Below are positions 4,860 through 31,530 of a stretch of DNA of 64,000 nt, piece by piece. The number at the start of each line of letters is the position of its first letter. Positions within the stretch are counted from its first letter, which is position 1. Origin of the DNA: a virus (taxonomy: Duplodnaviria > Heunggongvirae > Uroviricota > Caudoviricetes); IMG/VR virus record IMGVR_UViG_3300025723_001543, positions 93,307 to 157,306 of that record; one strand, given 5' to 3'. Under the pieces are notes generated by a model that was given only the letters and a program-made list of their open reading frames with translations, did not search any database and was not told the DNA's origin. Made by a program: the position numbers and the translations under genes.

Positions 4860-6470
4860 TTATGAATATAATACAGAGAAAAGATCAGTTTCTAGATTTA
4901 GGTTAAAATTGTTATCTGATATTATTAAGGGTTTGCCAAACATCATGTTACCTACAGGATGCATAACTTTTTTAACTACATCAACATATTTATCTAAAGA
5001 TTTTTCAACTTGTATTTCATATGAGTAATCTTGATAATAATAACTGTCCTGAATATATTTATCGGTGTTCAACAATCCTGTATTATCTGACCATCTTCCT
5101 TCTTCCATACCAACACCAGCAACATTTATTGTTAACTGAACTTCAGTATCTTGATTTCTTGGATTAGAGAATGTTAAGCTTTCTCCTTGTGTATTAAATC
5201 CGAATCCAGATGAAAGAAGTTTAACGTCGCCCACAGTTCCATTTGCAGCAGCCAATTCTGCAGTTATTACAGCATTGTTCCCCCATATTCCACCTTTGGA
5301 ATCGGTATACCCATATCCGGTAATCAATGGTTCTGTCACTGATACTTGTAAAGACCCGTTGTACTTTCTATCTCCAGAAGTAGTTGCATGTATTTCTGAT
5401 ATTGTTCCGATTGTTATATCATCAAATGTCAAAGCTTCCTGTAGAACAGAATTAACATTTGTATTATTTAAAACAGAACCATAATCTGCAGAAGATAGTA
5501 ATGTAGCAGCAGAGTCCGATAATAAATTGCTGTTTATACTAATGACAGAAGTATTGCTAATAGTTTTAATTTTAAAAGATGCACCACTTCCCATTGTTGC
5601 GGTTCTATATCCTATAGAAATATGTGAGTTAGCACGATATCCATATCCACCATCAACAATTTTAAAAGTAATATAACCAATATTTTTGCCATAATCTAGG
5701 AGAGCTTTTACATTAAATTGCAATCCCTTTGCTGAATCTGTATTTACTACAAGAACATCATTTATAGCATTATCTGCACCAGATGAATCCACTGTAGCAC
5801 TTCTAGCAGAACCAAGAACATAGGATGTGTTAGATAAAGTTGTAAACCCATCATATGTCAAATACTCACCAATTCCAAACTCATCTCCATTCTTTCCATA
5901 ATGCAAGTCTGTTATAAAAAGAATATAACAAATTTTATCACCAATGTACAATTCAACTGCTTCGTCTACATAAGCTATTGCACCAGTAGTAGTGCCAGTT
6001 ATAAATTTATTTAAATATGAAAAATGATTGGTACTATTTTTTGGTATAACTTCAATGTATTTTCTTTGATACCATTTACCACTTGAAGGTTTTAAAATAT
6101 CAATCTGAGGTAGATAAATTTCTATATTCTTGTTATAAAGCAATCTAAAAAGAAGCTTCATTCCTTCAGATGCACCTTTAGAACGATATACATCTAGTAT
6201 GTGTTTTTCAAGAAATCTTTTATCAGTAAGAATATTTTTTGGAATACCATCCATATATTTTGTCATAAAATATTTGACGTATTCATCGAGAGTTTGATCT
6301 ATGTCTCTATATTCACCAAGTCTTCTAGTTTTATATCCTACAGATGCCTCAGAGTCCATCCATTCGTAATATGCTTTTATAAATTGTATAAAATTTTCTC
6401 CTTCTTCTTTATAAAAAGAAGGGAATTGATTTTCTATTAAAGGAGCAATATTTTTTAAATCTGTAAACAT
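4860..6470 (-). CDS. 7: baseplate wedge protein, gp7-like (short form)
   Basis: KGASEGMKLLFRLLYNKNIEIY resembles remembered T4 gp7 C-terminal region (KGIEASYKFLFKVLYNEEVEIE). Position is immediately after gp6. Confidence 0.45.
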   Translation of the reverse strand: MFTDLKNIAPLIENQFPSFYKEEGENFIQFIKAYYEWMDSEASVGYKTRRLGEYRDIDQTLDEYVKYFMTKYMDGIPKNILTDKRFLEKHILDVYRSKGASEGMKLLFRLLYNKNIEIYLPQIDILKPSSGKWYQRKYIEVIPKNSTNHFSYLNKFITGTTTGAIAYVDEAVELYIGDKICYILFITDLHYGKNGDEFGIGEYLTYDGFTTLSNTSYVLGSARSATVDSSGADNAINDVLVVNTDSAKGLQFNVKALLDYGKNIGYITFKIVDGGYGYRANSHISIGYRTATMGSGASFKIKTISNTSVISINSNLLSDSAATLLSSADYGSVLNNTNVNSVLQEALTFDDITIGTISEIHATTSGDRKYNGSLQVSVTEPLITGYGYTDSKGGIWGNNAVITAELAAANGTVGDVKLLSSGFGFNTQGESLTFSNPRNQDTEVQLTINVAGVGMEEGRWSDNTGLLNTDKYIQDSYYYQDYSYEIQVEKSLDKYVDVVKKVMHPVGNMMFGKPLIISDNNFNLNLETDLFSVLYS

Positions 6471-18978: not shown

Positions 18979-19163
18979 TGGTGGGATATAATAATATTGC
19001 CACCTATTATAATACTCTGTTTTCTTTGATACAACATCATAAATACTCATTGACAGAAGTATATGAAATGTACCCATATGAGCGTGATCTATTCGTTGAA
19101 TTATTAATACAGCATCTAAGAGAACAAGAAGAAGAAAACAACAGAAGAAACACACATGGCTGA
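18966..19163 (+). CDS. -1 frameshift extension of chaperone (GT-like product), slippery site T TTT TTT at 18966-18972
   Basis: Frame -1 ORF YIMVGYNNIATYYN...NTHG* begins at the heptanucleotide and ends by overlapping ATG 19156 of the tape measure gene. Confidence 0.45.
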   Translation, partial: FFYIMVGYNNIATYYNTLFSLIQHHKYSLTEVYEMYPYERDLFVELLIQHLREQEEENNRRNTHG

Positions 19164-21402
19164 TTTAGGTAATTTAACGAAAAAAGTTGCAGGAAAAGTT
19201 GGTTCTGCAGCTATGACTGTAGGAAAAACAGCCGGGGGCGCAGTTGCTTCCGCTGGTAAAGCAGTTGGTGGCGTTGTTAGTTCTCTTGCTCAAGGTACGT
19301 TCAATACTATAAAAAGTGGTATTGTTCAATCTACAGGCATAAATGCATTACGCCCATCTAATGTTATTGGTGGTGTATTAGATTCTGTTGGTCTTGGAGC
19401 AATGAGACCAGCATTTGGTGGAGACCCAACACAAAAAGCGGCTGCACAAGCAGCAAATCGTGTTGTAGCACAAAACAATGCTAATACTTCTTTAAAACCA
19501 TTAGAAGAACTTCTTCAAAAACTTTTAACAATCAATGAAAAAATTCTTGAAAATACTAACTCTATGTTAAGTTATGCAAAGAAACAAAGTGGACTATTAG
19601 ATACTGCTAATGATCTTGTTAAAAAACAGATGCTACAAGATATTGAAAATGCAAGAGTAGCAGCTGGAAAAGGAAAAGTTGGCGTAGGCACACCAGCAAA
19701 CGATAATACTCCCGGCAAAAAGCCAGCTGAAGGTGGTTTTCTCAGTGGAATTTTAGGGAGTATTATGGGTGGTGCTGGAAGTCTTTTAAAAATGCTTGGT
19801 CCAATCGGAGAATTTTTAGGTTCAATTGGAAGAATATTTTTAAAACTTGGCAGATTTACTATGTTATTAAATCCATATGTTCTTGCAGCTGAAGTAATAT
19901 TATTGTCTCTTAAAGCAGAAGATTGGGCATCTTTTTTTGACAATATTGGTAAAATATTTGGTGCTCTTGCTGAAGGAAAATTTCTTGAAGCTTTTACAAG
20001 ATCAATGCTTTTACTTCCTGAATTAATACTTAGAGGACTGATGAGAATTGCAGAATATATACTTGAATTTTTTGGATTTGAAGACTTAGCAAAAAAATTA
20101 AGTAAATTTATTGATTCATTTGACTTATATGATATATTGGTAAATTCTTTTAAAGAAATTGTTGATGTTATAATGAATATTGGATCAATGCTTGTAGATG
20201 GTGCAAAATTTATAGGCAAAAAAATTGGCGGTGTAATATCTGGTGTATGGGATACTATATCAAATGCATTTGGCACATTATTTAAAGATATAACGGATGC
20301 ATTTGATGCTTTTTCTTCTGGTGATATAATCAAAGGAATAGTAAAGTTAGTTTATGCAATACCAGATGCTCTTATTCAATGGGTCGGAAGAGCATTAGCC
20401 ACTGTAGTAGATTTTTTTGGTGGTGCAGAAATGGCTAAAACCATTCGTAATTTCTTAGATAATTTTAATCTAACAGATACTATTCTTAAATTTTTTACAT
20501 CTGTAAAAGAATATGTAACTGATACTTTTGCTAGTGCTACCAAAGCATTTTCTGATTGGTGGAAAGATTTTCATCCAATTGATGACATGATTGGAACATT
20601 TAGTTCAATAAAAGATTGGATAACATCTAAATTTACTGACACTACCAAAGCATTTTCTGATTGGTGGAAAGATTTTCATCCAATTGATGACATGATTGGA
20701 ACATTTAGTTCAATAAAAGATTGGATAACATCTAAATTTACTGACACTACCAAAGCATTTTCACAATGGTGGGATAGTTTTTCAATAATTGATATTGTAC
20801 TTACGCCATTCAATTATTTAAAAGATACTGCAACAGCATTATTTGATAATCTTCAAAAATCAGTTGCAGATGTTCTTTCGTTTGATCTTGTCAAAAAAGT
20901 AAGTGATTCTATAAGTTCAGTAGTAAGCGGCGTTTGGGATTTCTTTAAAGCTTTGCCAAGCAAAGCTGTTGATTTAATTTCTGATTTGATTCCTGATAGT
21001 CTTAAAGGTTTTTTCAAATCTATGTTTGGTAGTTCAACCACACCAACAGCAACACCAACTACACCGCCAGTAACACAACCAAGAACAGCTCTTACTCCAC
21101 AATCGACGAGTAGAGTAATTCAAGAACGTGAAGACGCTTTTAATGCTACACCAACTGCAGCTAATGTTTCACCAGTTCCAACTGGAAGAGAGCAAGTATT
21201 CAATCAACAATCTGCACGTATGTCAGTTGATCAAGCAGCACCAACAGCTGTAATTATAAACAACAATAATAATAGCCCAAATATTGGAAGTTCTGGGCAA
21301 AATTCACTGCCCAGAACTTCGGGTGCAGTACAAACAGCTCCACAATCATCTCATATAGACAGAGCATTATATGGAGATACTTATGGAGCTGGTGTTCCTT
21401 AG
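19156..21402 (+). CDS. tail tape measure protein (gp29-like)
   Basis: 748 aa. Gly/Ala-rich N-terminal hydrophobic segment, long helical body, 35-aa tandem repeats, and a position after the chaperone with frameshift. Confidence 0.6.
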   Translation: MADLGNLTKKVAGKVGSAAMTVGKTAGGAVASAGKAVGGVVSSLAQGTFNTIKSGIVQSTGINALRPSNVIGGVLDSVGLGAMRPAFGGDPTQKAAAQAANRVVAQNNANTSLKPLEELLQKLLTINEKILENTNSMLSYAKKQSGLLDTANDLVKKQMLQDIENARVAAGKGKVGVGTPANDNTPGKKPAEGGFLSGILGSIMGGAGSLLKMLGPIGEFLGSIGRIFLKLGRFTMLLNPYVLAAEVILLSLKAEDWASFFDNIGKIFGALAEGKFLEAFTRSMLLLPELILRGLMRIAEYILEFFGFEDLAKKLSKFIDSFDLYDILVNSFKEIVDVIMNIGSMLVDGAKFIGKKIGGVISGVWDTISNAFGTLFKDITDAFDAFSSGDIIKGIVKLVYAIPDALIQWVGRALATVVDFFGGAEMAKTIRNFLDNFNLTDTILKFFTSVKEYVTDTFASATKAFSDWWKDFHPIDDMIGTFSSIKDWITSKFTDTTKAFSDWWKDFHPIDDMIGTFSSIKDWITSKFTDTTKAFSQWWDSFSIIDIVLTPFNYLKDTATALFDNLQKSVADVLSFDLVKKVSDSISSVVSGVWDFFKALPSKAVDLISDLIPDSLKGFFKSMFGSSTTPTATPTTPPVTQPRTALTPQSTSRVIQEREDAFNATPTAANVSPVPTGREQVFNQQSARMSVDQAAPTAVIINNNNNSPNIGSSGQNSLPRTSGAVQTAPQSSHIDRALYGDTYGAGVP
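20539..20772 (+). repeat. in-frame 105-bp tandem direct repeat (2 identical copies + partial third) inside the tape measure gene
   Basis: ACCAAAGCATTTTCTGATTGGTGGAAAGATTTTCATCC... recurs at 20539, 20644 and 20749, encoding TKAFSDWWKDFHPIDDMIGTFSSIKDWITSKFTDT x2.3. Confidence 0.85.
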
Positions 21403-23243: not shown

Positions 23244-23477
23244 TTAGATAGGAAGTCTATTTGTTTTCTTCATCATATTCATATTTTCAGCTTCATATTG
23301 AAGTCTTGCTTTCAAAATAGCATTATGCTTAATCAAAGCTGCAACTGTTTCTACTTCTATATTATGACTTTCACAATATAAAATTACAGCATCCATATAT
23401 TCACAATTTTTATTCTTCACAATCATCTCAATTTCAATAACAAAATCAGATGGAGTTTTAATATTAACAATTTTCAT
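23244..23477 (-). CDS. 33: late transcription co-activator gp33-like
   Basis: 77 aa. YMDAVILYCESHNIEVETVAALIK..ILKARLQYEAENMN resembles the remembered gp33 C-terminal region. Synteny 33-dsbA-59-32. Confidence 0.4.
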   Translation of the reverse strand: MKIVNIKTPSDFVIEIEMIVKNKNCEYMDAVILYCESHNIEVETVAALIKHNAILKARLQYEAENMNMMKKTNRLPI

Positions 23478-23484
23478 AATTAAT

Positions 23485-23790
23485 CCTTTTAAAAAGTGAG
23501 CCCATTCTGTTCCAAGGCGGTGCTCATACCCGTGAAACTTAAGCCGCTAGGCGAGTCTCAATGAGTGCATTATCGTTAGCATCTAAACGTTGCTTTTAGT
23601 CTCTTCGTACCTTTACTACAACCCGTCGAACCTATTTCCAGCCCATCAAAGATACATTGGTGACAATATTAGAGACCTTTGCTCTTATCATCGGTACGGT
23701 CATGCGAGGACCAATGTATCCATGGTGGACTGGTCGGGTACTGCCCCCGAGTCCGAATTGTCTATTCCTTACGCCTCAACGACTTAAGCA
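23485..23790 (-). ncRNA. ssrA: circularly permuted (two-piece) tmRNA gene. Acceptor piece about 23723-23790 (T-arm, 3' acceptor strand CCAGUCC, ACCA). Intervening segment 23645-23722. Coding piece about 23485-23644 (5' GGGCUGG..., resume codon GCU at 23580-23578, tag ANDNALIETRLAA, stop UAA 23541-23539)
   Basis: Minus-strand GGGCUGGAAAUAGGUUCGACGGG matches the tmRNA 5' end (E. coli GGGGCUGAUUCUGGAUUCGACGGG). AAUUCGGACUCGGGGGCAGUACCCGACCAGUCCACCA matches the tmRNA 3' end (AAUUUCGGACGCGGGUUCAACUCCCGCCAGCUCCACCA) but lies UPSTREAM of the 5' strand. The 7-bp acceptor stem has a G3:U wobble. Tag reading frame ends ...LAA-UAA. Confidence 0.7.
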
Positions 23791-23794
23791 TCAT

Positions 23795-23824
23795 ATTTAT
23801 AACACAGCTATTATTATATGTCAA
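23795..23824 (-). promoter_or_regulatory. sigma70-like promoter TTGACA-N17-TATAAA(T) (also contains TATAAATA) driving the tmRNA precursor
   Basis: Revcomp of 23819-23824 is TTGACA. A 17-nt spacer precedes TATAAAT at 23802-23795. Confidence 0.55.
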
Positions 23825-23829
23825 GCAAC

Positions 23830-24525
23830 TCAAATACCATATTTGTCTTTATATTTCTTGCGAACTTCTAGCAACTTGCCAACATAATCATCTCTTTTTT
23901 CAATAAAAATTTGTGGTTCTTCATCATCAACAGAAATCATTACTACAGTCTGAGAAATAGGTATGCCAGTTCTTTCTTCATACATGATTGCATAAGCAGC
24001 TGCTTGACAAAAATAATTAGTGATGTAACTTTTTTCTTTTGGTTTTAGTGCTGTCTTAAAATCGATAATAGAAAGTTTGCCTTCATATTCAGCAACACAA
24101 TCGACTGTTCCAGCCATCTCAAGATAGTCGGAATACAATCTTACTTCTTGAAGATGCACATTATCAATCTTTTCATCAATAACTTTCCTCAACCTAGAAA
24201 AACTTTCTAGGTCAATTATACTATATTTTTTATCGAAAACATCTTCATTATTGATATATTCTTCACAAATTTTATGAACACGAGTTCCACGAGAAGCAGC
24301 TTTAGAAGAAATTTTGTTTGCTTCTTCAGCACCAACTCGTCGCCGCCATTCCATAATAGCATCTTTCGTCATCATCCCAACAACAGTTGTCACTGATGGA
24401 TACTTGGCTCCGGTAGGAGTTTGATAAAACCTACCGGAGTCTGTGTTTATTTGTTCAACTTTTTCAATGATAATTTTATCAGTGTGTTGAAAGATTTTCT
24501 TCTTTTTTGAATTCGGTTTCCACAT
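23830..24525 (-). CDS. PD-(D/E)XK family nuclease (Cas4/RecB-like phage exonuclease)
   Basis: Motifs SVTTVVG, D...GTVD, IIDFKT (D..E.K). The annotated start overlaps the phoH 3' end by 47 nt in another frame. Confidence 0.55.
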   Translation of the reverse strand: MWKPNSKKKKIFQHTDKIIIEKVEQINTDSGRFYQTPTGAKYPSVTTVVGMMTKDAIMEWRRRVGAEEANKISSKAASRGTRVHKICEEYINNEDVFDKKYSIIDLESFSRLRKVIDEKIDNVHLQEVRLYSDYLEMAGTVDCVAEYEGKLSIIDFKTALKPKEKSYITNYFCQAAAYAIMYEERTGIPISQTVVMISVDDEEPQIFIEKRDDYVGKLLEVRKKYKDKYGI

Positions 24526-25279
24526 TCATTTGCACCATTTTATAGAGATTATTATCAAATTTGTTTTTTGTGATGATAAAATCTTTAACCAAACCAGAAC
24601 GAACTATATCATTTTCCACAAATTCAATGCAACTAAAATATTTGTGCATGTTCTTTAGAATTTTCATGAAATAAAATATACCTTGCTTTTCATCATCATA
24701 TTTCAAATCGGTTTGTCTATAATCACCACAGAATAAAATCTTAGAATTTTGTCCTGTTCTTGTGATGATTGTGGATAGTTCAGAGAATGTCATATTTTGA
24801 CATTCATCTACTATAATGATAGAATTGTCTAATGTCAAGCCTCTTAAGAAAGATGATGTCTGAAATTCGACGATTCCCTTATTTTTAAGAATATCGTATG
24901 CATCACCTCTACCATATAGTTCTCTACAGATTTCTTGATATGGTTGTTCATATACTTTTGCTTTTTCTTTTGCACTTCCCGGCAAGAATCCCATATCTCT
25001 GGATGGAACAACTGACCTGATAATAATTACTTTATGATATGTTCTAAAATTTTCTATCTCTGATAGTGCAAGATATAATGATATGAATGATTTTCCTGTG
25101 CCTGGTAATCCGTGGATTAATAAATTTTTTCCATTTGTGAAGTCTTTAAAAACTAATTCTTGATTTGTTGTTTTTGGTTTAATAGCTTTTATTTTTAAAC
25201 CATTTGATATAACAGTTTTTTCCTCAGTTCTTTTTTGTTTTCTTGACATTCTTTTTTCTGCACGGGTAGGTCTATCCAT
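24479..25279 (-). CDS. phoH: PhoH-like ATPase
   Basis: Walker A GLPGTGKS, Walker B IIIVDECQN; length and motif spacing typical of phage PhoH. Confidence 0.9.
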   Translation of the reverse strand: MDRPTRAEKRMSRKQKRTEEKTVISNGLKIKAIKPKTTNQELVFKDFTNGKNLLIHGLPGTGKSFISLYLALSEIENFRTYHKVIIIRSVVPSRDMGFLPGSAKEKAKVYEQPYQEICRELYGRGDAYDILKNKGIVEFQTSSFLRGLTLDNSIIIVDECQNMTFSELSTIITRTGQNSKILFCGDYRQTDLKYDDEKQGIFYFMKILKNMHKYFSCIEFVENDIVRSGLVKDFIITKNKFDNNLYKMVQMNVETEFKKEENLSTH

Positions 25280-25551: not shown

Positions 25552-26592
25552 ATGACAACCAAAATTTTCGTATCCCAAATAGATACAACACAGCCAGATG
25601 GATCAACAGCTTCTTCCAATTCAGTAATTCTTCTTACAGATACTGGTCCTATATGGAAACCACTTTCTGCTTTAAATTCTGTTGGTTATACTGGTTCGCA
25701 AGGAATTAATGGTTATTTTGGATCAGTTGGCTATCGAGGTTCGACTGGCGAAGTTGGTGTGCCGGGAACATCTGGTTACAAAGGTTCTGTCGGATATACT
25801 GGTTCGGCTGGAGTTGGGTATCAAGGTTCTGTAGGATACACTAGTTCTATTGGTTATACAAGTTCTGTAGGATATACTGGTTCACAAGGAACTACAGGGT
25901 ATTTTGGTTCATTAGGTTATACTGGTTATTTTGGTTCAGTTGGTTATCAGGGTTCTTTAGGAGTCGGTTATCAAGGTTCTGTTGGTTATCAAGGGTCAGC
26001 TGGTATAACAGGAATACTTGCACCATTTCCTTTTATCAATCTTTCTGATGTTGCAGACACAAATGGCAATCCATATACTGGCTATAATGATTTTGGTGGT
26101 TCATATGTCAGAGTAAAACCATCAAGAGACGGATTAGTTCTTGATCCAACAGTTGTATTGACTCCCAACATTACTGTAAATGTAGATTTTCATGGTAATC
26201 AACTTCAACATCCTGTGTTCAGCGGTTATTCAGAAAATGTAATAGATGATGGTCAACCGGGCGCTTCTCTATCTGCAAATCCATTGAATGGTAATGTAAT
26301 TAAAGCTACTCTCAATTCACCTATTACAACTATTACAATGACAAATGCTGGATTAATTTCTGGAAGATTATTTTCAGTAACATTTTTCTTGAAACAAGAT
26401 TCTACTGGTGGAAGAGTACTTGATTGGACAAATAATATCATCTATTGGTCAACAGGTGATGGTATTAATCAAAATACTGGTCCAATCCTTTCAACACAAC
26501 CATTTTATACTGATATTATAACTGTATATACATATGATGCTGGTGGTTCTTGGTATGGAATCATGGGTGCTAGAGGTTTCCCAACACCATAA
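25552..26592 (+). CDS. collagen-like (Gly-X-Y) tail fibre protein
   Basis: About 40 uninterrupted GXY triplets (GYTGSQGINGYFGSVGYRGSTGEVGVPGTSGYKGSVGYTGSAG...) followed by a 190-aa C-terminal globular region. Confidence 0.6.
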   Translation: MTTKIFVSQIDTTQPDGSTASSNSVILLTDTGPIWKPLSALNSVGYTGSQGINGYFGSVGYRGSTGEVGVPGTSGYKGSVGYTGSAGVGYQGSVGYTSSIGYTSSVGYTGSQGTTGYFGSLGYTGYFGSVGYQGSLGVGYQGSVGYQGSAGITGILAPFPFINLSDVADTNGNPYTGYNDFGGSYVRVKPSRDGLVLDPTVVLTPNITVNVDFHGNQLQHPVFSGYSENVIDDGQPGASLSANPLNGNVIKATLNSPITTITMTNAGLISGRLFSVTFFLKQDSTGGRVLDWTNNIIYWSTGDGINQNTGPILSTQPFYTDIITVYTYDAGGSWYGIMGARGFPTP

Positions 26593-29358: not shown

Positions 29359-31530
29359 ATGAAAATTTGGGTAGTTGGTGATTATTTAAAATCACAAGAT
29401 TTGAATGCTAACTTTGCAGAACTATCTAGCAATGTAGGTTTTTTGCAAGCAAACGTAGCAACTATTAATGCTGAAATAGGTGATATATACTCAAAATTAA
29501 ATGGTATTACATCTACTTCAAACGTTTCTGGGTTGGATGCTAGATATTTTACTGGCCAATATGTAACAGGATTTAGTCATAGTTCAAACAGTATTAGTTA
29601 TGAAGCTCCATTAATATATAAACAAATACCCGATTCTAGAATCGGCAACACTGTTATTGAAGCAAATACCTATACAATAGGAATAGGTCCAATTCTTCCT
29701 CTTGATAATACTGTAATTTACACAGCATCATTTTGGAGCAGAAAAGTACAAAATGGTAGTGCAAATTCTGGTACATTATATTTTGTTATATCAAATTACG
29801 AGGCAAACTTACAAGTTATACCAGGAGATGGCGGTTATTATCATTATCCAATAGAAAATTTAGTACAAAATACAATATCAACAGCTGATGGTTGGGAAAA
29901 ATATTCTTTTAATGTTGGTCCAAATTCTGGAACAAAAGATCATTCTACAAATGCAAAATTTATAAGTCTTGGGTTTATTGTAAATTATCCAGTCGATGGA
30001 CCAACTGCATATGGAAATGACGTATTTCAATTTACAGGATTTTCATTAAAACCGGCTGGAAATAATATTATTGGTTATACAGGATCGAGTGGAACTGATC
30101 AAGGCGAACCGGGTTATAAAGGTTCGAAAGGATTTACAGGTTCTCGTGGATTAACTGGATATTTTGGTTCTACTGGATTTAAAGGTTCACAAGGAATTAG
30201 TGGCTATCAAGGTAGTGCTGGAGTACAAGGATCAGTTGGTTATATAGGAAGTGCTGGTGTTCAAGGTTCAGTTGGTTATGAAGGTTCGGCTGGTGTAAGA
30301 GGATCGACTGGATATGTTGGATCATTAGGACCGGGAGTACAAGGATCAGTTGGTTATCTTGGTTCTACAGGGTTTAAAGGGTCTGTTGGATCAGTTGGTT
30401 ATAAAGGTTCAGTCGGTGATCCCGGTGGTCCAGTTGGTTATCAAGGTTCGGCTGGTTATCAGGGGAGTTTGGGATATCAAGGATCGGCTGGTGTCCAAGG
30501 ATCAACTGGATATGTTGGATCATTAGGACCGGGAGTACAAGGATCAGTTGGATTTAAAGGGTCGGCTGGTTATCAAGGTTCTGCAGGATTTCGTGGTTCT
30601 GCTGGATACAGAGGATCGGTTGGGTATCAAAGTTCTGTTGGATATCTTGGTTCTACAGGATATCTTGGTTCAGTAGGGTATCTTGGATCGGTAGGTTATA
30701 CAGGTTCTATTGGTGATCAAGGACCACCGGGTGGAAGCACAGGTTATACAGGCTCAGTTGGATTTGTCGGATCATTAGGATATGATGGCTCACTTGGATA
30801 TACAGGTTCTAGCGGATATACAGGATCAGTAGGGTTTATCGGATCATTAGGATATGATGGCTCACTTGGATATACAGGTTCAAGAGGTGGCGGATATTTT
30901 GGTTCTACCGGATATAGCGGCTCTATTGGATTTCAAGGATCAGCTGGTTATTTTGGTTCATTTGGTTATAAAGGAAGTGTTGGTTATTCTGGATCATATG
31001 GTTATCTTGGCTCAGTAGGATATACAGGTTCTGTTGGTGCAAGAGGCGTTGATGGTTATAAAGGTTCTATAGGTATAATGGGTTCTATAGGATATCAAGG
31101 TTCAGCTGGTACTTCATATCCTCCTGCGATTGCATTTGCTGCAAAATCTGACATAGGTTCTTATGAACAAGATTATTGGATATTTGATATAGTTGTATTA
31201 AATAAAGGTAATGGGTTTGATTATTTAAGTGGTAAATTTACTGCACCAAAAACAGGATATTATTATATACATCTTTCTGGAGATGTAGATTATTATGCTG
31301 ATGGTATGATAAGAATTTATTTTGCAGTTAATGATGTAATTTATACGACTGCAAAATATATCAGTACAAAATATTCTACGCAAAATGGATGGCAAAATTT
31401 TAATATGTCAACTGTCATGTATCTACATGAAGGCGATTATATTATGCCTTACATAGAAATAGCTGGTGGTCAAAATATAGATAGTAACCCAGAAAACACT
31501 TCTTTTGATGGTTTTTTTATAGGAGAATAA
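29359..31530 (+). CDS. collagen-like fibre protein with C-terminal C1q/TNF-like globular domain (candidate whisker/fibritin analog)
   Basis: About 110 GXY triplets (res ~235-565). The C-terminus fits the C1q signature F-x5-N-x4-F-x6-F-x5-G-x-Y-x-(I)-x-(L): FDIVVLNKGNGFDYLSGKFTAPKTGYYYIHL. The gene lies two genes upstream of gp13, where T4 has wac. Confidence 0.75.
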   Translation: MKIWVVGDYLKSQDLNANFAELSSNVGFLQANVATINAEIGDIYSKLNGITSTSNVSGLDARYFTGQYVTGFSHSSNSISYEAPLIYKQIPDSRIGNTVIEANTYTIGIGPILPLDNTVIYTASFWSRKVQNGSANSGTLYFVISNYEANLQVIPGDGGYYHYPIENLVQNTISTADGWEKYSFNVGPNSGTKDHSTNAKFISLGFIVNYPVDGPTAYGNDVFQFTGFSLKPAGNNIIGYTGSSGTDQGEPGYKGSKGFTGSRGLTGYFGSTGFKGSQGISGYQGSAGVQGSVGYIGSAGVQGSVGYEGSAGVRGSTGYVGSLGPGVQGSVGYLGSTGFKGSVGSVGYKGSVGDPGGPVGYQGSAGYQGSLGYQGSAGVQGSTGYVGSLGPGVQGSVGFKGSAGYQGSAGFRGSAGYRGSVGYQSSVGYLGSTGYLGSVGYLGSVGYTGSIGDQGPPGGSTGYTGSVGFVGSLGYDGSLGYTGSSGYTGSVGFIGSLGYDGSLGYTGSRGGGYFGSTGYSGSIGFQGSAGYFGSFGYKGSVGYSGSYGYLGSVGYTGSVGARGVDGYKGSIGIMGSIGYQGSAGTSYPPAIAFAAKSDIGSYEQDYWIFDIVVLNKGNGFDYLSGKFTAPKTGYYYIHLSGDVDYYADGMIRIYFAVNDVIYTTAKYISTKYSTQNGWQNFNMSTVMYLHEGDYIMPYIEIAGGQNIDSNPENTSFDGFFIGE

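What the first reader, a model, noticed from the sequence alone, without database searches (positions are those of the whole stretch)
23485..23824. Phage-encoded circularly permuted (two-piece) tmRNA gene with its own sigma70-like promoter, sitting just upstream of gp33
On the minus strand, 23644-23622 reads GGGCUGGAAAUAGGUUCGACGGG, a near-copy of the canonical tmRNA 5' end, followed by a tag reading frame (resume GCU at 23580; ANDNALIETRLAA; UAA). The matching T-arm + 3' acceptor strand + ACCA (CAAUUCGGACUCGGGGGCAGUACCCGACCAGUCC-ACCA, 23760-23723) lies 78 nt UPSTREAM of that 5' strand. This gene order is only seen in permuted two-piece tmRNAs (alpha-proteobacteria, some cyanobacteria and beta-proteobacteria). 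The inferred 7-bp acceptor stem keeps the G3:U70 alanine identity pair. A palindromic GCUUAAG occurs both at the precursor 5' end and across the tag stop codon, and could close the two pieces. A near-consensus promoter TTGACA-N17-TATAAAT (also containing TATAAATA) sits at 23824-23795. A virus carrying a host-lineage-specific permuted ssrA implies manipulation of trans-translation during infection and points to the host clade.
Basis: partly seen in the sequence, partly recalled or inferred. Interest (0 to 1): 0.85.

Follow-up and report, generated by a model that had tools for sequence, protein, structure and literature searches.

The report
Phage two-piece tmRNA carrying an RNA insert
A T4-like marine phage carries a complete, circularly permuted ribosome-rescue RNA (tmRNA) gene just upstream of gp33; this arrangement is already published for related phages, but the spacer that is cut out of this precursor holds a conserved structured RNA module, apparently undescribed, that also occurs in the tRNA clusters of many other phages.

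Summary
ARAGORN calls a permuted tmRNA with tag ANDNALIETRLAA, and Rfam alpha_tmRNA scores 94.3 bits (threshold 50). The acceptor stem (G3·U70), the alpha-type T-arm and helix P2a covary across 108 phage homologues. The -35/-10 promoter is conserved in relatives, and its -10 also reads as a T4-type late box (TATAAATA).

It is not new as a kind. Buchholz et al. 2022 described the same PhoH–nuclease–ssrA–gp33 layout in OM43 phage Melnitz and in pelagimyophages, and I found an unannotated copy in HTVC008M. This window lacks Melnitz's glutamine riboswitch and belongs to a different T4-like lineage. Inferring the host from the tmRNA type is unsafe, because Melnitz infects a non-alphaproteobacterium.

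The unexpected part is the 78-nt intervening segment. It is a 72-nt module with a variable closing stem, a covarying inner helix and a possible pseudoknot. The same module is present in about 40 phage sequences, mostly abutting tRNA or tmRNA ends. It is absent from Rfam and nearly absent from cellular genomes. Its function is unknown.

The parts
23819..23824 (-). -35 hexamer TTGACA of the tmRNA promoter
   Evidence: Read directly from the sequence. It is the only exact TTGACA-N17-TATAAA in the 64 kb. A TTGAC(A/T)-like -35 sits at the same distance in about 20 related phage tmRNA loci.
23794..23801 (-). -10 region TATAAATA: TATAAA with an upstream TGn, which is also the T4-type late-promoter box
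   Evidence: TATAAATA is conserved upstream of nearly all related tmRNAs. The same box lies 30-45 nt upstream of many structural genes in the window. Promoter activity is inferred, not shown.
23723..23789 (-). Acceptor piece (about 67 nt). It contains the 5' end near 23789, the P2 3' strands (P2d 23789-23786, P2c 23784-23781, P2b 23773-23770, P2a 23760-23754), the T stem 23750-23746/23738-23734 with T loop GGCAGUA (23745-23739), the acceptor 3' strand 23733-23727, and the encoded ACCA 23726-23723
   Evidence: Rfam alignments. An unconstrained co-fold recovers the T-arm and acceptor stem. The 5' end is inferred from the promoter position.
23645..23722 (-). Intervening segment (78 nt) that is removed on maturation. 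Positions 23721-23650 form the 72-nt structured module: P1 23721-23710 with 23661-23650, and a 48-nt core 23709-23662 containing P2 and a putative GACC:GGUC pseudoknot. The conserved leader UUGAU (23649-23645) precedes the presumed RNase P site
   Evidence: The hairpin folds and matches Rhodococcus phages. Covariation was tested on alignment A2. Covariance model R1 scores 88.3 bits at 23718-23653.
23491..23644 (-). Coding piece (about 150 nt). It contains the acceptor 5' strand 23644-23638, the D-loop-like GAAAUAGGUUCGAC, the P2a 3' strand 23625-23619, the distal P2 strands 23609-23592, the tag ORF 23580-23539 (ANDNALIETRLAA, stop UAA 23541-23539), the 3' pseudoknot domain with conserved UUGGAACAGAA (S2: 23526-23522 with 23501-23497), and a U-run 23495-23491
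   Evidence: The 3' end is inferred from the end of the Rfam model (23495) and the U-run.
23537..23553 (-). End of the tag ORF and stop-codon region, which can pair with the transcript 5' end (23789-23772) in an alternative 17-bp helix.
   Evidence: Co-fold and duplex energies against shuffles. The conservation test in relatives was inconclusive.
23244..23477 (-). gp33 late-transcription coactivator. Its start codon is 13 nt downstream of the tmRNA U-run, with SD AAGGA at 23488-23484. It has no promoter of its own in the gap, so it is probably co-transcribed with the tmRNA
   Evidence: Pfam PF16805, 64.6 bits. ORF list. Same order as Melnitz. Co-transcription is inferred.
23830..24525 (-). PD-(D/E)XK nuclease gene immediately upstream. 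PhoH lies at 24479-25279, upstream of that
   Evidence: Pfam PF12705 and PF02562. The synteny matches Melnitz and HTVC008M.

Best explanation
The locus is a complete, functional-looking phage copy of an alphaproteobacterial-type, circularly permuted ssrA gene.

Proposed mechanism, with the basis of each step:

1. Transcription starts near 23789 from a conserved promoter. The promoter combines a sigma-70-type -35/-10 with a T4-type late box, so expression could run both early and late in infection (inferred).

2. The precursor folds so that the 3' acceptor strand and CCA (23733-23723) pair with the downstream 5' strand (23644-23638). This is shown by covariation.

3. Host RNase P cuts after the conserved UUGAU leader at 23645|23644, and 3' processing trims back to the encoded CCA. 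The 78-nt intervening hairpin is released. This step is inferred from established knowledge of two-piece tmRNA in Caulobacter.

4. The result is a two-piece tmRNA of about 67 nt plus about 150 nt, held together by the acceptor stem and P2.

5. Host AlaRS charges it through the G3·U70 identity pair. With host SmpB it enters stalled ribosomes and adds ANDNALIETRLAA, whose LAA end is a ClpXP-type degron (inferred).

6. The probable benefit to the phage is to keep ribosomes recycling while host and phage nucleases generate non-stop mRNAs, and to feed tagged proteins into proteolysis (inferred).

7. gp33 lies 13 nt downstream and is probably read from the same transcript.

The excised intervening segment is not junk. 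It is a copy of a phage-specific structured RNA module, most likely a small stable RNA 'passenger' that is set free by the same tRNA-processing cuts.
For: Identity of the gene:
- ARAGORN calls a permuted tmRNA.
- Rfam RF01849 scores 94.3 bits and RF04321 scores 88.1 bits.
- An unconstrained co-fold of the two pieces recovers the acceptor stem and T-arm.

Selection on structure, measured in 108 distinct phage homologues:
- The acceptor stem is 99.6% paired, with G·U at pair 3 in 108 of 108 and compensatory changes at pairs 4-6.
- The T-arm is 100% paired, with four pair types at its first pair.
- P2a is 84% paired, against 23-43% in slid registers.

Selection on the tag: relatives keep ANDN…(A/R)LAA while the middle varies. 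L092 encodes the identical tag although its RNA is only 74% identical.

Promoter: the -35 and TATAAATA are conserved in relatives.

Phage context: T4-type gp32, gp59, gp33, PhoH, baseplate, sheath, gp20 and gp23. The synteny is the same as in Melnitz and HTVC008M.

The conserved (U)UUGAU or UAUGAU leader precedes the mature 5' end in nearly all relatives.

The module:
- 27 distinct copies are 93.4% paired, against 70.6% for shuffles.
- 15 pairs show double-sided changes, and 0 of 500 shuffles reach the observed values.
- It is always on the tRNA strand, and about 22 of 34 copies lie within 25 nt of a tRNA or tmRNA end on either side.
Against: - No expression, processing, charging or tagging data exist for this phage.
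- No phage-encoded SmpB was found among the large ORFs I scanned, so function depends on compatibility with an unknown host.
- The distal P2 helices are weak here (-10.7 kcal/mol, z about -1) and compete with the 17-bp alternative helix.
- No clear PK1 was identified upstream of the resume codon.
- The 3' domain has no significant MFE signal (z = 0.8). Its pseudoknot is inferred by comparison with relatives only.
- The -10 lacks the canonical T at -7. Allowing one mismatch, the promoter pattern is not enriched in the window (2 found, 1.7 expected).
- For the module, the 'passenger small RNA' idea rests on position alone. Copies also occur away from tRNAs, for example in Sulfitobacter phages.
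Confidence: 0.88

Rival explanations
1. The RNA acts mainly as a decoy or inhibitor of host trans-translation, titrating SmpB or AlaRS, rather than as a working rescue RNA. This is what was proposed for the TLD-only tmRNA of mycobacteriophage DS6A.
For: Phage tmRNA-like molecules that inhibit host tmRNA are on record (PMC4131195; PMC11915505). The distal P2 and PK1 regions are reduced compared with the alpha consensus: the alignment has 16-nt deletions.
Against: The mRNA-like domain is complete. It has an Ala resume codon, a 13-residue tag and a stop codon. The ANDN…LAA ends are conserved across more than 70 phage homologues while the middle varies. That pattern indicates selection on the translated tag.
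Confidence: 0.07
2. The locus is a non-functional relic: a host ssrA fragment picked up by imprecise excision, or an attP-type ssrA fragment.
For: tmRNA genes are frequent integration sites, and prophages often carry ssrA fragments (PMC9004378; PMC4383910, listed).
Against: Both pieces, the promoter, the tag ORF and the 3' domain are all present. The structure covaries across 108 phage copies. The position between the nuclease gene and gp33 is conserved in distant T4-like phages. The family scans of the window's larger ORFs returned no integrase. The Rfam score is well above threshold.
Confidence: 0.03
3. The main selected role of the locus is as an expression and processing platform. A strong dual promoter plus tRNA-like cleavage signals would deliver (a) the intervening-segment cargo RNA and (b) the downstream gp33 message, with trans-translation secondary.
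For: Intervening segments in related phage tmRNAs range from 8 to more than 220 nt and carry unrelated cargo inside a conserved closing stem. This includes SD+ATG mini-ORFs in 21 of 106 distinct segments. L065 and L071 differ only by two synonymous changes. gp33 follows with no room for its own promoter. The module is flanked by tRNA or tmRNA ends in most other copies.
Against: The tmRNA parts themselves are under strong purifying and compensatory selection. Many homologues have tiny intervening segments of 8-30 nt with no cargo. Cargo is therefore optional and the tmRNA is the constant.
Confidence: 0.1
4. The intervening module is a cis-acting processing device, either a new self-cleaving ribozyme or an RNase recognition or insulator element. 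It would make tmRNA and tRNA end maturation independent of host 3'-processing enzymes, analogous to theta ribozymes.
For: The module starts 1-7 nt after tRNA or tmRNA 3' ends and ends 1-9 nt before the next 5' end in many copies. Its 48-nt core is highly conserved, with unpaired nucleotides, a conserved C·U mismatch and a possible pseudoknot. There is precedent for ribozymes next to phage tRNAs (PMC10879173).
Against: No known ribozyme family matches at E ≤ 5-10 in six independent copies. The topology, a conserved core inside one closing stem, does not fit the HDV-like fold. The distance to tRNA ends is not fixed. About a third of copies are not next to any tRNA.
Confidence: 0.15

Closest known systems
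ssrA of Methylophilales phage Melnitz and the pelagimyophages (Buchholz et al. 2022, PMC9004378)
   Same: An alpha-type two-piece tmRNA in a T4-like marine myovirus, with the same gene order PhoH – PD-(D/E)XK nuclease – ssrA – gp33 coactivator – gp59 loader – gp32 and an early-type promoter upstream.
   Different: Melnitz has a glutamine riboswitch (RF01739, 52.8 bits) between ssrA and gp33. The window has none at E ≤ 10, and gp33 follows within 13 nt of the U-run. Melnitz's intervening segment is about 175 nt and holds an SD+AUG mini-ORF, whereas the window's holds the structured module. The portal and gp32 of this phage are closer to DLP6, phiM12/phiN3 and cyanophages (50-60%) than to Melnitz or HTVC008M.
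Pelagibacter phage HTVC008M tmRNA (unannotated in NC_020484)
   Same: A permuted alpha-type tmRNA (RF04321 90.6 bits, RF01849 83.8 bits) lies downstream of PhoH and the exonuclease and upstream of gp33.
   Different: Two hypothetical ORFs separate it from gp33. There is no DNA-level similarity to the window's gene by blastn. It has no module.
Cellular two-piece tmRNA of Alphaproteobacteria (Rfam RF01849; Caulobacter paradigm, Keiler et al. 2000, from my own knowledge as the paper is not held)
   Same: Permuted gene order, a G3·U70 acceptor stem, the alpha-specific T loop GGCRGUA, an ANDN…LAA tag, the 3' UGGMAACAGAA pseudoknot domain, and even the promoter-like positions of the model.
   Different: The distal P2 helices are shortened by a 16-nt deletion on each side. 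The intervening segment is enlarged by about 50 nt. The gene sits in a lytic phage genome of about 30% G+C.
One-piece tmRNAs of mycobacteriophages (Bxz1 group) and Bacillus phage G, and the TLD-only RNA of DS6A (PMC4131195)
   Same: These are phage-encoded components of trans-translation.
   Different: They have the standard, non-permuted gene form or lack a tag. Their phage and host lineages are different.
For the intervening module: theta (HDV-like) ribozymes next to phage tRNAs (PMC10879173), the manA RNA (RF01745), and the T4 stable RNAs C and D in phage tRNA clusters
   Same: All are small structured RNAs embedded in phage tRNA arrays on the tRNA strand. Theta ribozymes abut tRNA 3' ends. 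A manA RNA lies in the same Francesca tRNA array as a module copy.
   Different: There is no sequence or covariance-model match to any of them. The module lacks the HDV-like nested double pseudoknot topology. It abuts 5' ends as often as 3' ends, and it also occurs inside tmRNA precursors and in tRNA-free intergenic regions.

Membership tests
Permuted (two-piece) tmRNA, alpha type (Rfam RF01849 / RF04321) | Covariance-model score at or above the curated gathering score | tested here: met
   RF01849 scores 94.3 bits against 50. RF04321 scores 88.1 bits against 47.
Permuted (two-piece) tmRNA, alpha type (Rfam RF01849 / RF04321) | Permuted gene order: the T-arm, 3' acceptor strand and CCA lie upstream of the 5' acceptor strand and the tag ORF | tested here: met
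   ACCA is at 23726-23723 and the 5' strand starts at 23644 on the same strand. ARAGORN calls 'tmRNA*'.
Permuted (two-piece) tmRNA, alpha type (Rfam RF01849 / RF04321) | 7-bp acceptor stem with the G3·U70 alanine identity pair | tested here: met
   The co-fold gives pairs 23644:23727 through 23638:23733, including G23642·U23729. G·U is present in 108 of 108 homologues, and pairs 4-6 covary.
Permuted (two-piece) tmRNA, alpha type (Rfam RF01849 / RF04321) | T-arm with a 5-bp stem and the alpha-type 7-nt loop GGCRGUA | tested here: met
   UCGGG-GGCAGUA-CCCGA at 23750-23734. It is 100% paired in 108 homologues.
Permuted (two-piece) tmRNA, alpha type (Rfam RF01849 / RF04321) | P2 helix joining the acceptor piece to the coding piece | tested here: met
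   P2a (23760-23754 with 23625-23619) is 84% paired against 23-43% in slid registers, with covariation. The distal P2b-d helices covary in close relatives but are weak here and compete with an alternative helix.
Permuted (two-piece) tmRNA, alpha type (Rfam RF01849 / RF04321) | Tag reading frame with an alanine resume codon, a hydrophobic (L/V/I)AA end and a stop codon | tested here: met
   GCU at 23580 through UAA at 23541-23539 gives ANDNALIETRLAA. The ANDN…LAA pattern is conserved in relatives.
Permuted (two-piece) tmRNA, alpha type (Rfam RF01849 / RF04321) | Two processed RNA species in vivo, alanylation, and SmpB-dependent tagging | not testable with these tools
   This needs RNA from infected cells and biochemistry.
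Melnitz/pelagimyophage-type phage ssrA locus (PMC9004378) | ssrA sits between the PhoH/PD-(D/E)XK nuclease genes and the gp33 coactivator, behind an early-type promoter | tested here: met
Melnitz/pelagimyophage-type phage ssrA locus (PMC9004378) | Glutamine (glnA) riboswitch associated with the 3' side of ssrA | tested here: not met
   There is no RF01739 or RF01704 hit at E ≤ 10 in 23380-23900. Melnitz gives 52.8 bits with the same tool. The riboswitch is also absent from 12 related loci at gathering score. The paper itself treats this as a feature of some members only.
Melnitz/pelagimyophage-type phage ssrA locus (PMC9004378) | Membership of the Melnitz/HTVC008M gene-sharing cluster | tested here: inconclusive
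   The best isolate matches are DLP6 (portal, 60%), phiM12/phiN3 (52-56%) and cyanophages. HTVC008M gp33 is only 38% identical. No gene-sharing network was computed.
Theta / HDV-like ribozymes (candidate family for the intervening module) | HDV-like nested double pseudoknot with a catalytic C in J4/2, and cleavage at the ribozyme 5' end within ±5 nt of a tRNA 3' end | tested here: not met
   No HDV-family hit in six copies. The conserved core lies inside a single closing stem, P1. The module is adjacent to tRNA 3' ends in only about 13 of 34 copies and equally often to 5' ends.
Any Rfam 15 family (candidate families for the intervening module) | Covariance-model match | tested here: not met
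   Nothing overlaps the module at E ≤ 10 in the window or at E ≤ 5 in L123, L127, L135, L136 and L159.

The most novel reading that the evidence does not exclude
The 72-nt insert in the tmRNA intervening segment would be the founding example of a new class of phage RNA. It would be either a self-cleaving or processing element that lets phages mature tRNAs and two-piece tmRNA without host 3'-end nucleases, or a trans-acting small RNA released by tRNA-processing cuts that targets a host factor. More generally, phages would be using the discarded spacer of permuted tmRNA genes as an expression slot for cargo, both structured RNAs and mini-proteins.
Probability: 0.3. Interest if true: 0.75.

Novelty: new member of a known kind. 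Interest (0 to 1): 0.4.

Why it matters
The tmRNA itself adds one more example, from a different T4-like lineage, to a published phenomenon: marine myophages carrying alpha-type two-piece ssrA in front of gp33. It shows that the glutamine riboswitch is not an obligatory part of that arrangement. It also cautions against predicting the host from the tmRNA type.

The more useful lead is the intervening segment. A strongly covarying, phage-restricted RNA module sits exactly where tRNA- and tmRNA-processing enzymes cut, both in tmRNA precursors and in tRNA arrays of unrelated phages (actinophages, roseophages, jumbo-phage contigs). Whether it is a processing device or a released small RNA, it would bear on how phages make their translation RNAs and on what else they express from tRNA clusters, which is still poorly understood. 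Both ideas can be tested directly with in vitro cleavage assays and small-RNA sequencing.

Tried and rejected
- Protein-coding explanation. The only ORFs over the region are antisense, 65-76 aa. The G+C spike and the covariance-model hits explain the region. Rejected.

- Glutamine riboswitch as in Melnitz. Absent here, although the same tool finds it in Melnitz.

- Intrinsic terminator and sigma-70 scans. The scanner missed both sites because of its rules: T at -7, and a loop of 3-8 nt. The MFE of the 3' domain is not significant.

- Known ribozymes for the module. I compared hammerhead, hairpin, pistol, twister and HDV-like consensus features by eye and none fits. Rfam agrees.

- Gene-specific riboswitch idea for the module. 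The downstream ORFs in non-tRNA contexts are unrelated. Rejected.

- Covariance model R1 searched over 1.4 Mb of fetched loci. It found no divergent copies beyond those retrieved by pattern, and none in about 120 other tmRNA intervening loops.

- Literature. A string search for the module core found nothing relevant. The supplements of the 8,495-motif IMG/VR catalogue are not held, so prior anonymous listing cannot be excluded. Keiler 2000 and Sharkady & Williams 2004 are not held.

- Host ssrA comparison. I spent the single genome-contig scan on the module, so I made no direct comparison with SAR11 or other alphaproteobacterial ssrA.

Full report
**1. Checking the observation**

- TTGACA at 23824-23819.
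- A 17-nt spacer ending in TGn, then TATAAATA at 23801-23794.
- A T-arm, a 3' acceptor strand and ACCA, ending at 23723.
- A 78-nt spacer.
- GGGCUGGAAAUAGGUUCGACGGG starting at 23644.
- A reading frame from GCU (23580) to UAA (23541-23539) that encodes ANDNALIETRLAA.

ARAGORN finds exactly one RNA gene in the 64 kb: a permuted tmRNA with that tag. Rfam gives alpha_tmRNA 94.3 bits (gathering 50, E 2e-24) and tmRNA_permuted 88.1 bits (gathering 47). G+C rises to 0.46 over the gene in a genome of about 0.30. The only ORFs across the region are short and antisense.

**2. Genomic context**

The window is a T4-like myovirus. On the minus strand the gene order is PhoH (24479-25279), a PD-(D/E)XK nuclease (23830-24525), the tmRNA, gp33 (23244-23477; PF16805, 64.6 bits), an 89-aa ORF, gp59 and gp32. 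Elsewhere there are baseplate and tail genes, sheath, gp20 portal, gp23 capsid and UvsW.

No GenBank phage is similar at the DNA level. gp32 and the portal are 50-60% identical to Stenotrophomonas phage DLP6, the Sinorhizobium phiM12/phiN3 group and cyanophages. HTVC008M gp33 is only 38% identical.

**3. Structure and selection**

A degenerate pattern for the alpha-type T-arm and acceptor retrieved more than 119 IMG/VR contigs. ARAGORN called permuted tmRNAs in 78 of the 122 loci then held, with tags of the form ANDN…(A/R)LAA. Thirty-two of those loci also encode gp33 nearby.

Across 108 distinct homologues:
- The acceptor stem is 99.6% paired. G3·U is invariant and pairs 4-6 show compensatory changes.
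- The T-arm is 100% paired.
- P2a is 84% paired, against 23-43% in slid registers.

An unconstrained co-fold of the two predicted mature pieces recovers the acceptor stem and T-arm. The T loop GGCAGUA and the 3' UUGGAACAGAA pseudoknot domain are the alphaproteobacterial signatures in RF01849.

**4. Promoter and downstream gene**

The exact TTGACA-N17-TATAAA is unique in the window. With one mismatch allowed, the pattern is not enriched. The real support is conservation: about 20 related loci keep a TTGAC(A/T) -35 and a TATAAATA -10 at the same spacing.

TATAAATA is also the T4-type late-promoter box. In this window it lies 30-45 nt upstream of many structural genes on the coding strand. The tmRNA may therefore be transcribed both early and late, which is an inference.

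The gene ends in a pseudoknot-forming hairpin followed by UUUUU (23495-23491). The gp33 SD and start codon follow within 13 nt, so gp33 has no room for its own promoter and is probably co-transcribed (inference).

**5.

In close relatives the transcript 5' end reads GCUGAGG, GCUGAUG or GCUAAGG, so the CUUAAG palindrome is not conserved. The 5' end can form the canonical distal P2 helices with the coding piece. These show compensatory changes at (A/G/U)GUY:GAC(U/C/A) and match the RF04321 consensus structure.

However, the unconstrained co-fold pairs 23789-23772 with 23553-23537 in a 17-bp helix across the end of the tag and the stop codon. Its energy is -24.2 kcal/mol, against -10.8±2.9 for shuffles.

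In 16 relatives the same register is 66% paired, against 29-43% when slid. Its core (GUYGUUGA with UAGCNGC) is almost invariant and constrained by the L-A-A codons, and the one variable pair gives mixed evidence. I regard the helix as plausible in this phage but unproven. It competes with the distal P2 and with the P5 hairpin.

**6. Comparison with what is known**

Buchholz et al. 2022 (PMC9004378) described a two-piece, alpha-type ssrA in OM43 phage Melnitz. It lies directly upstream of the late-transcription coactivator and behind an early promoter. They found permuted tmRNAs in 17 of 47 related contigs and 53 two-piece tmRNAs among 18,146 phage genomes, 50 of them aquatic.

The Melnitz record shows the same order: PhoH – PDDEXK – SsrA – coactivator – helicase loader – ssDNA-binding protein. 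HTVC008M has an unannotated copy in the equivalent place. The finding is therefore a new member of a known kind.

It differs in three ways:
- Melnitz's glutamine riboswitch is genuine (RF01739, 52.8 bits). It lies after the tmRNA, between ssrA and gp33. It is absent here and in 12 relatives.
- The phage lineage differs.
- The content of the intervening segment differs.

Because Melnitz infects a non-alphaproteobacterium while carrying an alpha-type ssrA, the tmRNA type does not identify the host.

**7. The unexpected part: the intervening segment**

A blastn search of the region hit only two Rhodococcus phages, over the spacer rather than the tmRNA. In phage Francesca the match lies in a tRNA array, directly 5' of tRNA-Lys.

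The window's spacer folds as a 12-bp stem (23721-23710 with 23661-23650) around a 48-nt core. Two core patterns retrieved 21 and 33 IMG/VR contigs. Only one of 185,579 species genomes has it: Salipiger mucosus, immediately after tRNA-Cys in an 11-tRNA array.

In 27 distinct copies (alignment A2; pair counts):
- The closing stem P1 has a different sequence almost every time but is 100% paired, with double-sided changes at 12 of 14 pairs.
- An inner helix P2 covaries (UCG:CGA, CUG:CAG, UUG:CAA) around a conserved C·U mismatch.
- Overall 93.4% of cells are paired, against 70.6% for shuffles. None of 500 shuffles reaches the observed values, and slid registers give 28-45%.
- A GACC:GGUC pseudoknot is possible, but it is invariant and therefore untested.

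No Rfam family matches in six independent copies, and no held paper contains the sequence. The supplements of a catalogue of 8,495 anonymous IMG/VR motifs are not held, so prior listing there cannot be excluded.

A covariance model built from A2 scores the window copy at 88.3 bits. It finds 38 strong copies in the second batch of loci (39 hits listed, one weak at E 0.3), all of them in loci retrieved by the core patterns or by blastn, and none in about 120 other tmRNA loci.

Context of the copies:
- The module is always on the tRNA strand.
- About 22 of 34 distinct copies lie within 25 nt of a tRNA or tmRNA end, on the 5' side as often as the 3' side. Some fill the whole spacer.
- Five copies are associated with a tmRNA. 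Three sit inside permuted intervening loops (window, L128, L141). Two flank one-piece tmRNAs (L137, L144).
- The module also occurs without tRNAs, in a 510-nt noncoding region ahead of the HNH and terminase genes of Sulfitobacter phages.
- Downstream genes in non-tRNA contexts are unrelated.

**8. Intervening segments as cargo sites**

Among 106 distinct intervening segments of phage permuted tmRNAs, length runs from 8 to more than 220 nt inside a conserved closing stem and UUGAU leader. Twenty-one carry an SD+ATG ORF of at least 20 codons. L028 and L090 encode homologous 45-aa peptides. L065 and L071 differ by two synonymous changes. Others contain T-arm-like hairpins.

The 2025 tmRNA database paper mentions cargo only anecdotally: one tRNA-Ala and one repetitive element (PMC11915505).

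**9. Verdict**

The locus is a genuine phage-encoded two-piece tmRNA gene of the published Melnitz/pelagimyophage type (confidence about 0.9). Its mechanism is inferred from family knowledge; nothing has been shown experimentally for this phage.

The implied novelty and the host inference are overstated, and the GCUUAAG helix remains open.

The most interesting element is the conserved structured module in the excised spacer. My best guess is that it is a small RNA passenger released by tRNA-processing cuts (about 0.5). A cis-acting processing aid or ribozyme (about 0.25 together) and a DNA-level element are the alternatives.

Noticed in passing
window 23650-23721 (minus strand); also L123-L160 and L162: The tmRNA intervening segment is a copy of a 60-75-nt structured RNA module: a variable stem P1, a covarying helix P2 and a possible pseudoknot. 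The core reads CUCGCWUGACCGUNCCGAU-nn-UAAGAGCAAAGGUC-nn-UAAUAUUGYC. It is found in about 40 phage sequences, mostly abutting tRNA or tmRNA ends. It is absent from Rfam 15 and present in only 1 of 185,579 cellular species genomes.
   Followed up: yes
L001-L122 (IMG/VR permuted tmRNA loci); Melnitz L161 about 6075-6250: Intervening segments of phage permuted tmRNAs range from 8 to more than 220 nt and carry unrelated inserts inside a conserved closing stem. Of 106 distinct segments, 21 have an SD+ATG mini-ORF, often hydrophobic. L065 and L071 differ only by two synonymous changes, and L028 and L090 encode homologous 45-aa peptides. Melnitz's segment also starts with GGAGAA-N6-AUG.
   Followed up: partly
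L009, L047, L027, L012/L049, L032, L091 (intervening segments): Several other intervening segments contain T-arm-like hairpins (for example GGGTTCAAGTCCC and GGGGTTCGACTCCC), which suggests tRNA-like fragments or mini-tRNAs as cargo.
   Followed up: no
L122 1606-1917 (NC_020484.1 145103-145414): Pelagibacter phage HTVC008M carries a permuted alpha-type tmRNA (RF04321 90.6 bits) that RefSeq does not annotate. It partly overlaps the 'hypothetical protein' CDS I899_gp194.
   Followed up: partly
L161 6399-6447 (Melnitz MZ577097 46398-46446): The published Melnitz glutamine riboswitch is real (RF01739, 52.8 bits). It lies just after the tmRNA (alpha model ends at 6391), in the ssrA-gp33 spacer. It is therefore better placed to control read-through into gp33 than the tmRNA itself. 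It is absent from the window and from 12 related loci.
   Followed up: partly
window 25515, 32610, 35774, 38593, 40323, 43095, 48979, 50072 (+ strand): TATAAATA boxes lie 30-45 nt upstream of the starts of tail-fibre, sheath, portal, capsid and other structural ORFs, consistent with T4-type late promoters. The overall count (16) is not significantly above chance (11.2±3.4), so the signal lies in their positions.
   Followed up: partly
L123 841-1023 (Rhodococcus phage Francesca PP978770): An unannotated manA RNA (RF01745, 72.9 bits) lies between tRNA-Met and tRNA-Lys(ctt), in the same tRNA array that holds a copy of the module.
   Followed up: no
L162 1492-1558 (Sulfitobacter phage pCB2047-C NC_020856; also pCB2047-A and NYA-2014a): A copy of the module (66.8 bits, with UAAGAGCGAAGGUC) lies in a 510-nt noncoding region between a hypothetical gene and the endonuclease and terminase genes of a 40-kb roseophage. 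There is no tRNA nearby, so the module is not strictly linked to tRNAs.
   Followed up: partly
L137 2062-2505 and L144 8240-8677: Two phage contigs carry one-piece tmRNAs with the module placed directly next to them: 7 nt after the 3' end in L137 and 18 nt before the 5' end in L144. The association with tmRNA is therefore not limited to permuted genes.
   Followed up: partly
window 19156-21402 (+ strand): The 748-aa tape-measure-like protein contains an exact tandem duplication of about 35 residues (…FSDWWKDFHPIDDMIGTFSSIKDWITSKFTDTTKA… twice), visible in the translation.
   Followed up: no
window 25552-26592 and 29359-31530 (+ strand): There are two fibre-like proteins. One has long GYxGSxG-type glycine-rich repeats. 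The other has collagen triple-helix repeats (PF01391) followed by a C-terminal C1q domain (PF00386), an unusual receptor-binding tip for a phage fibre.
   Followed up: no
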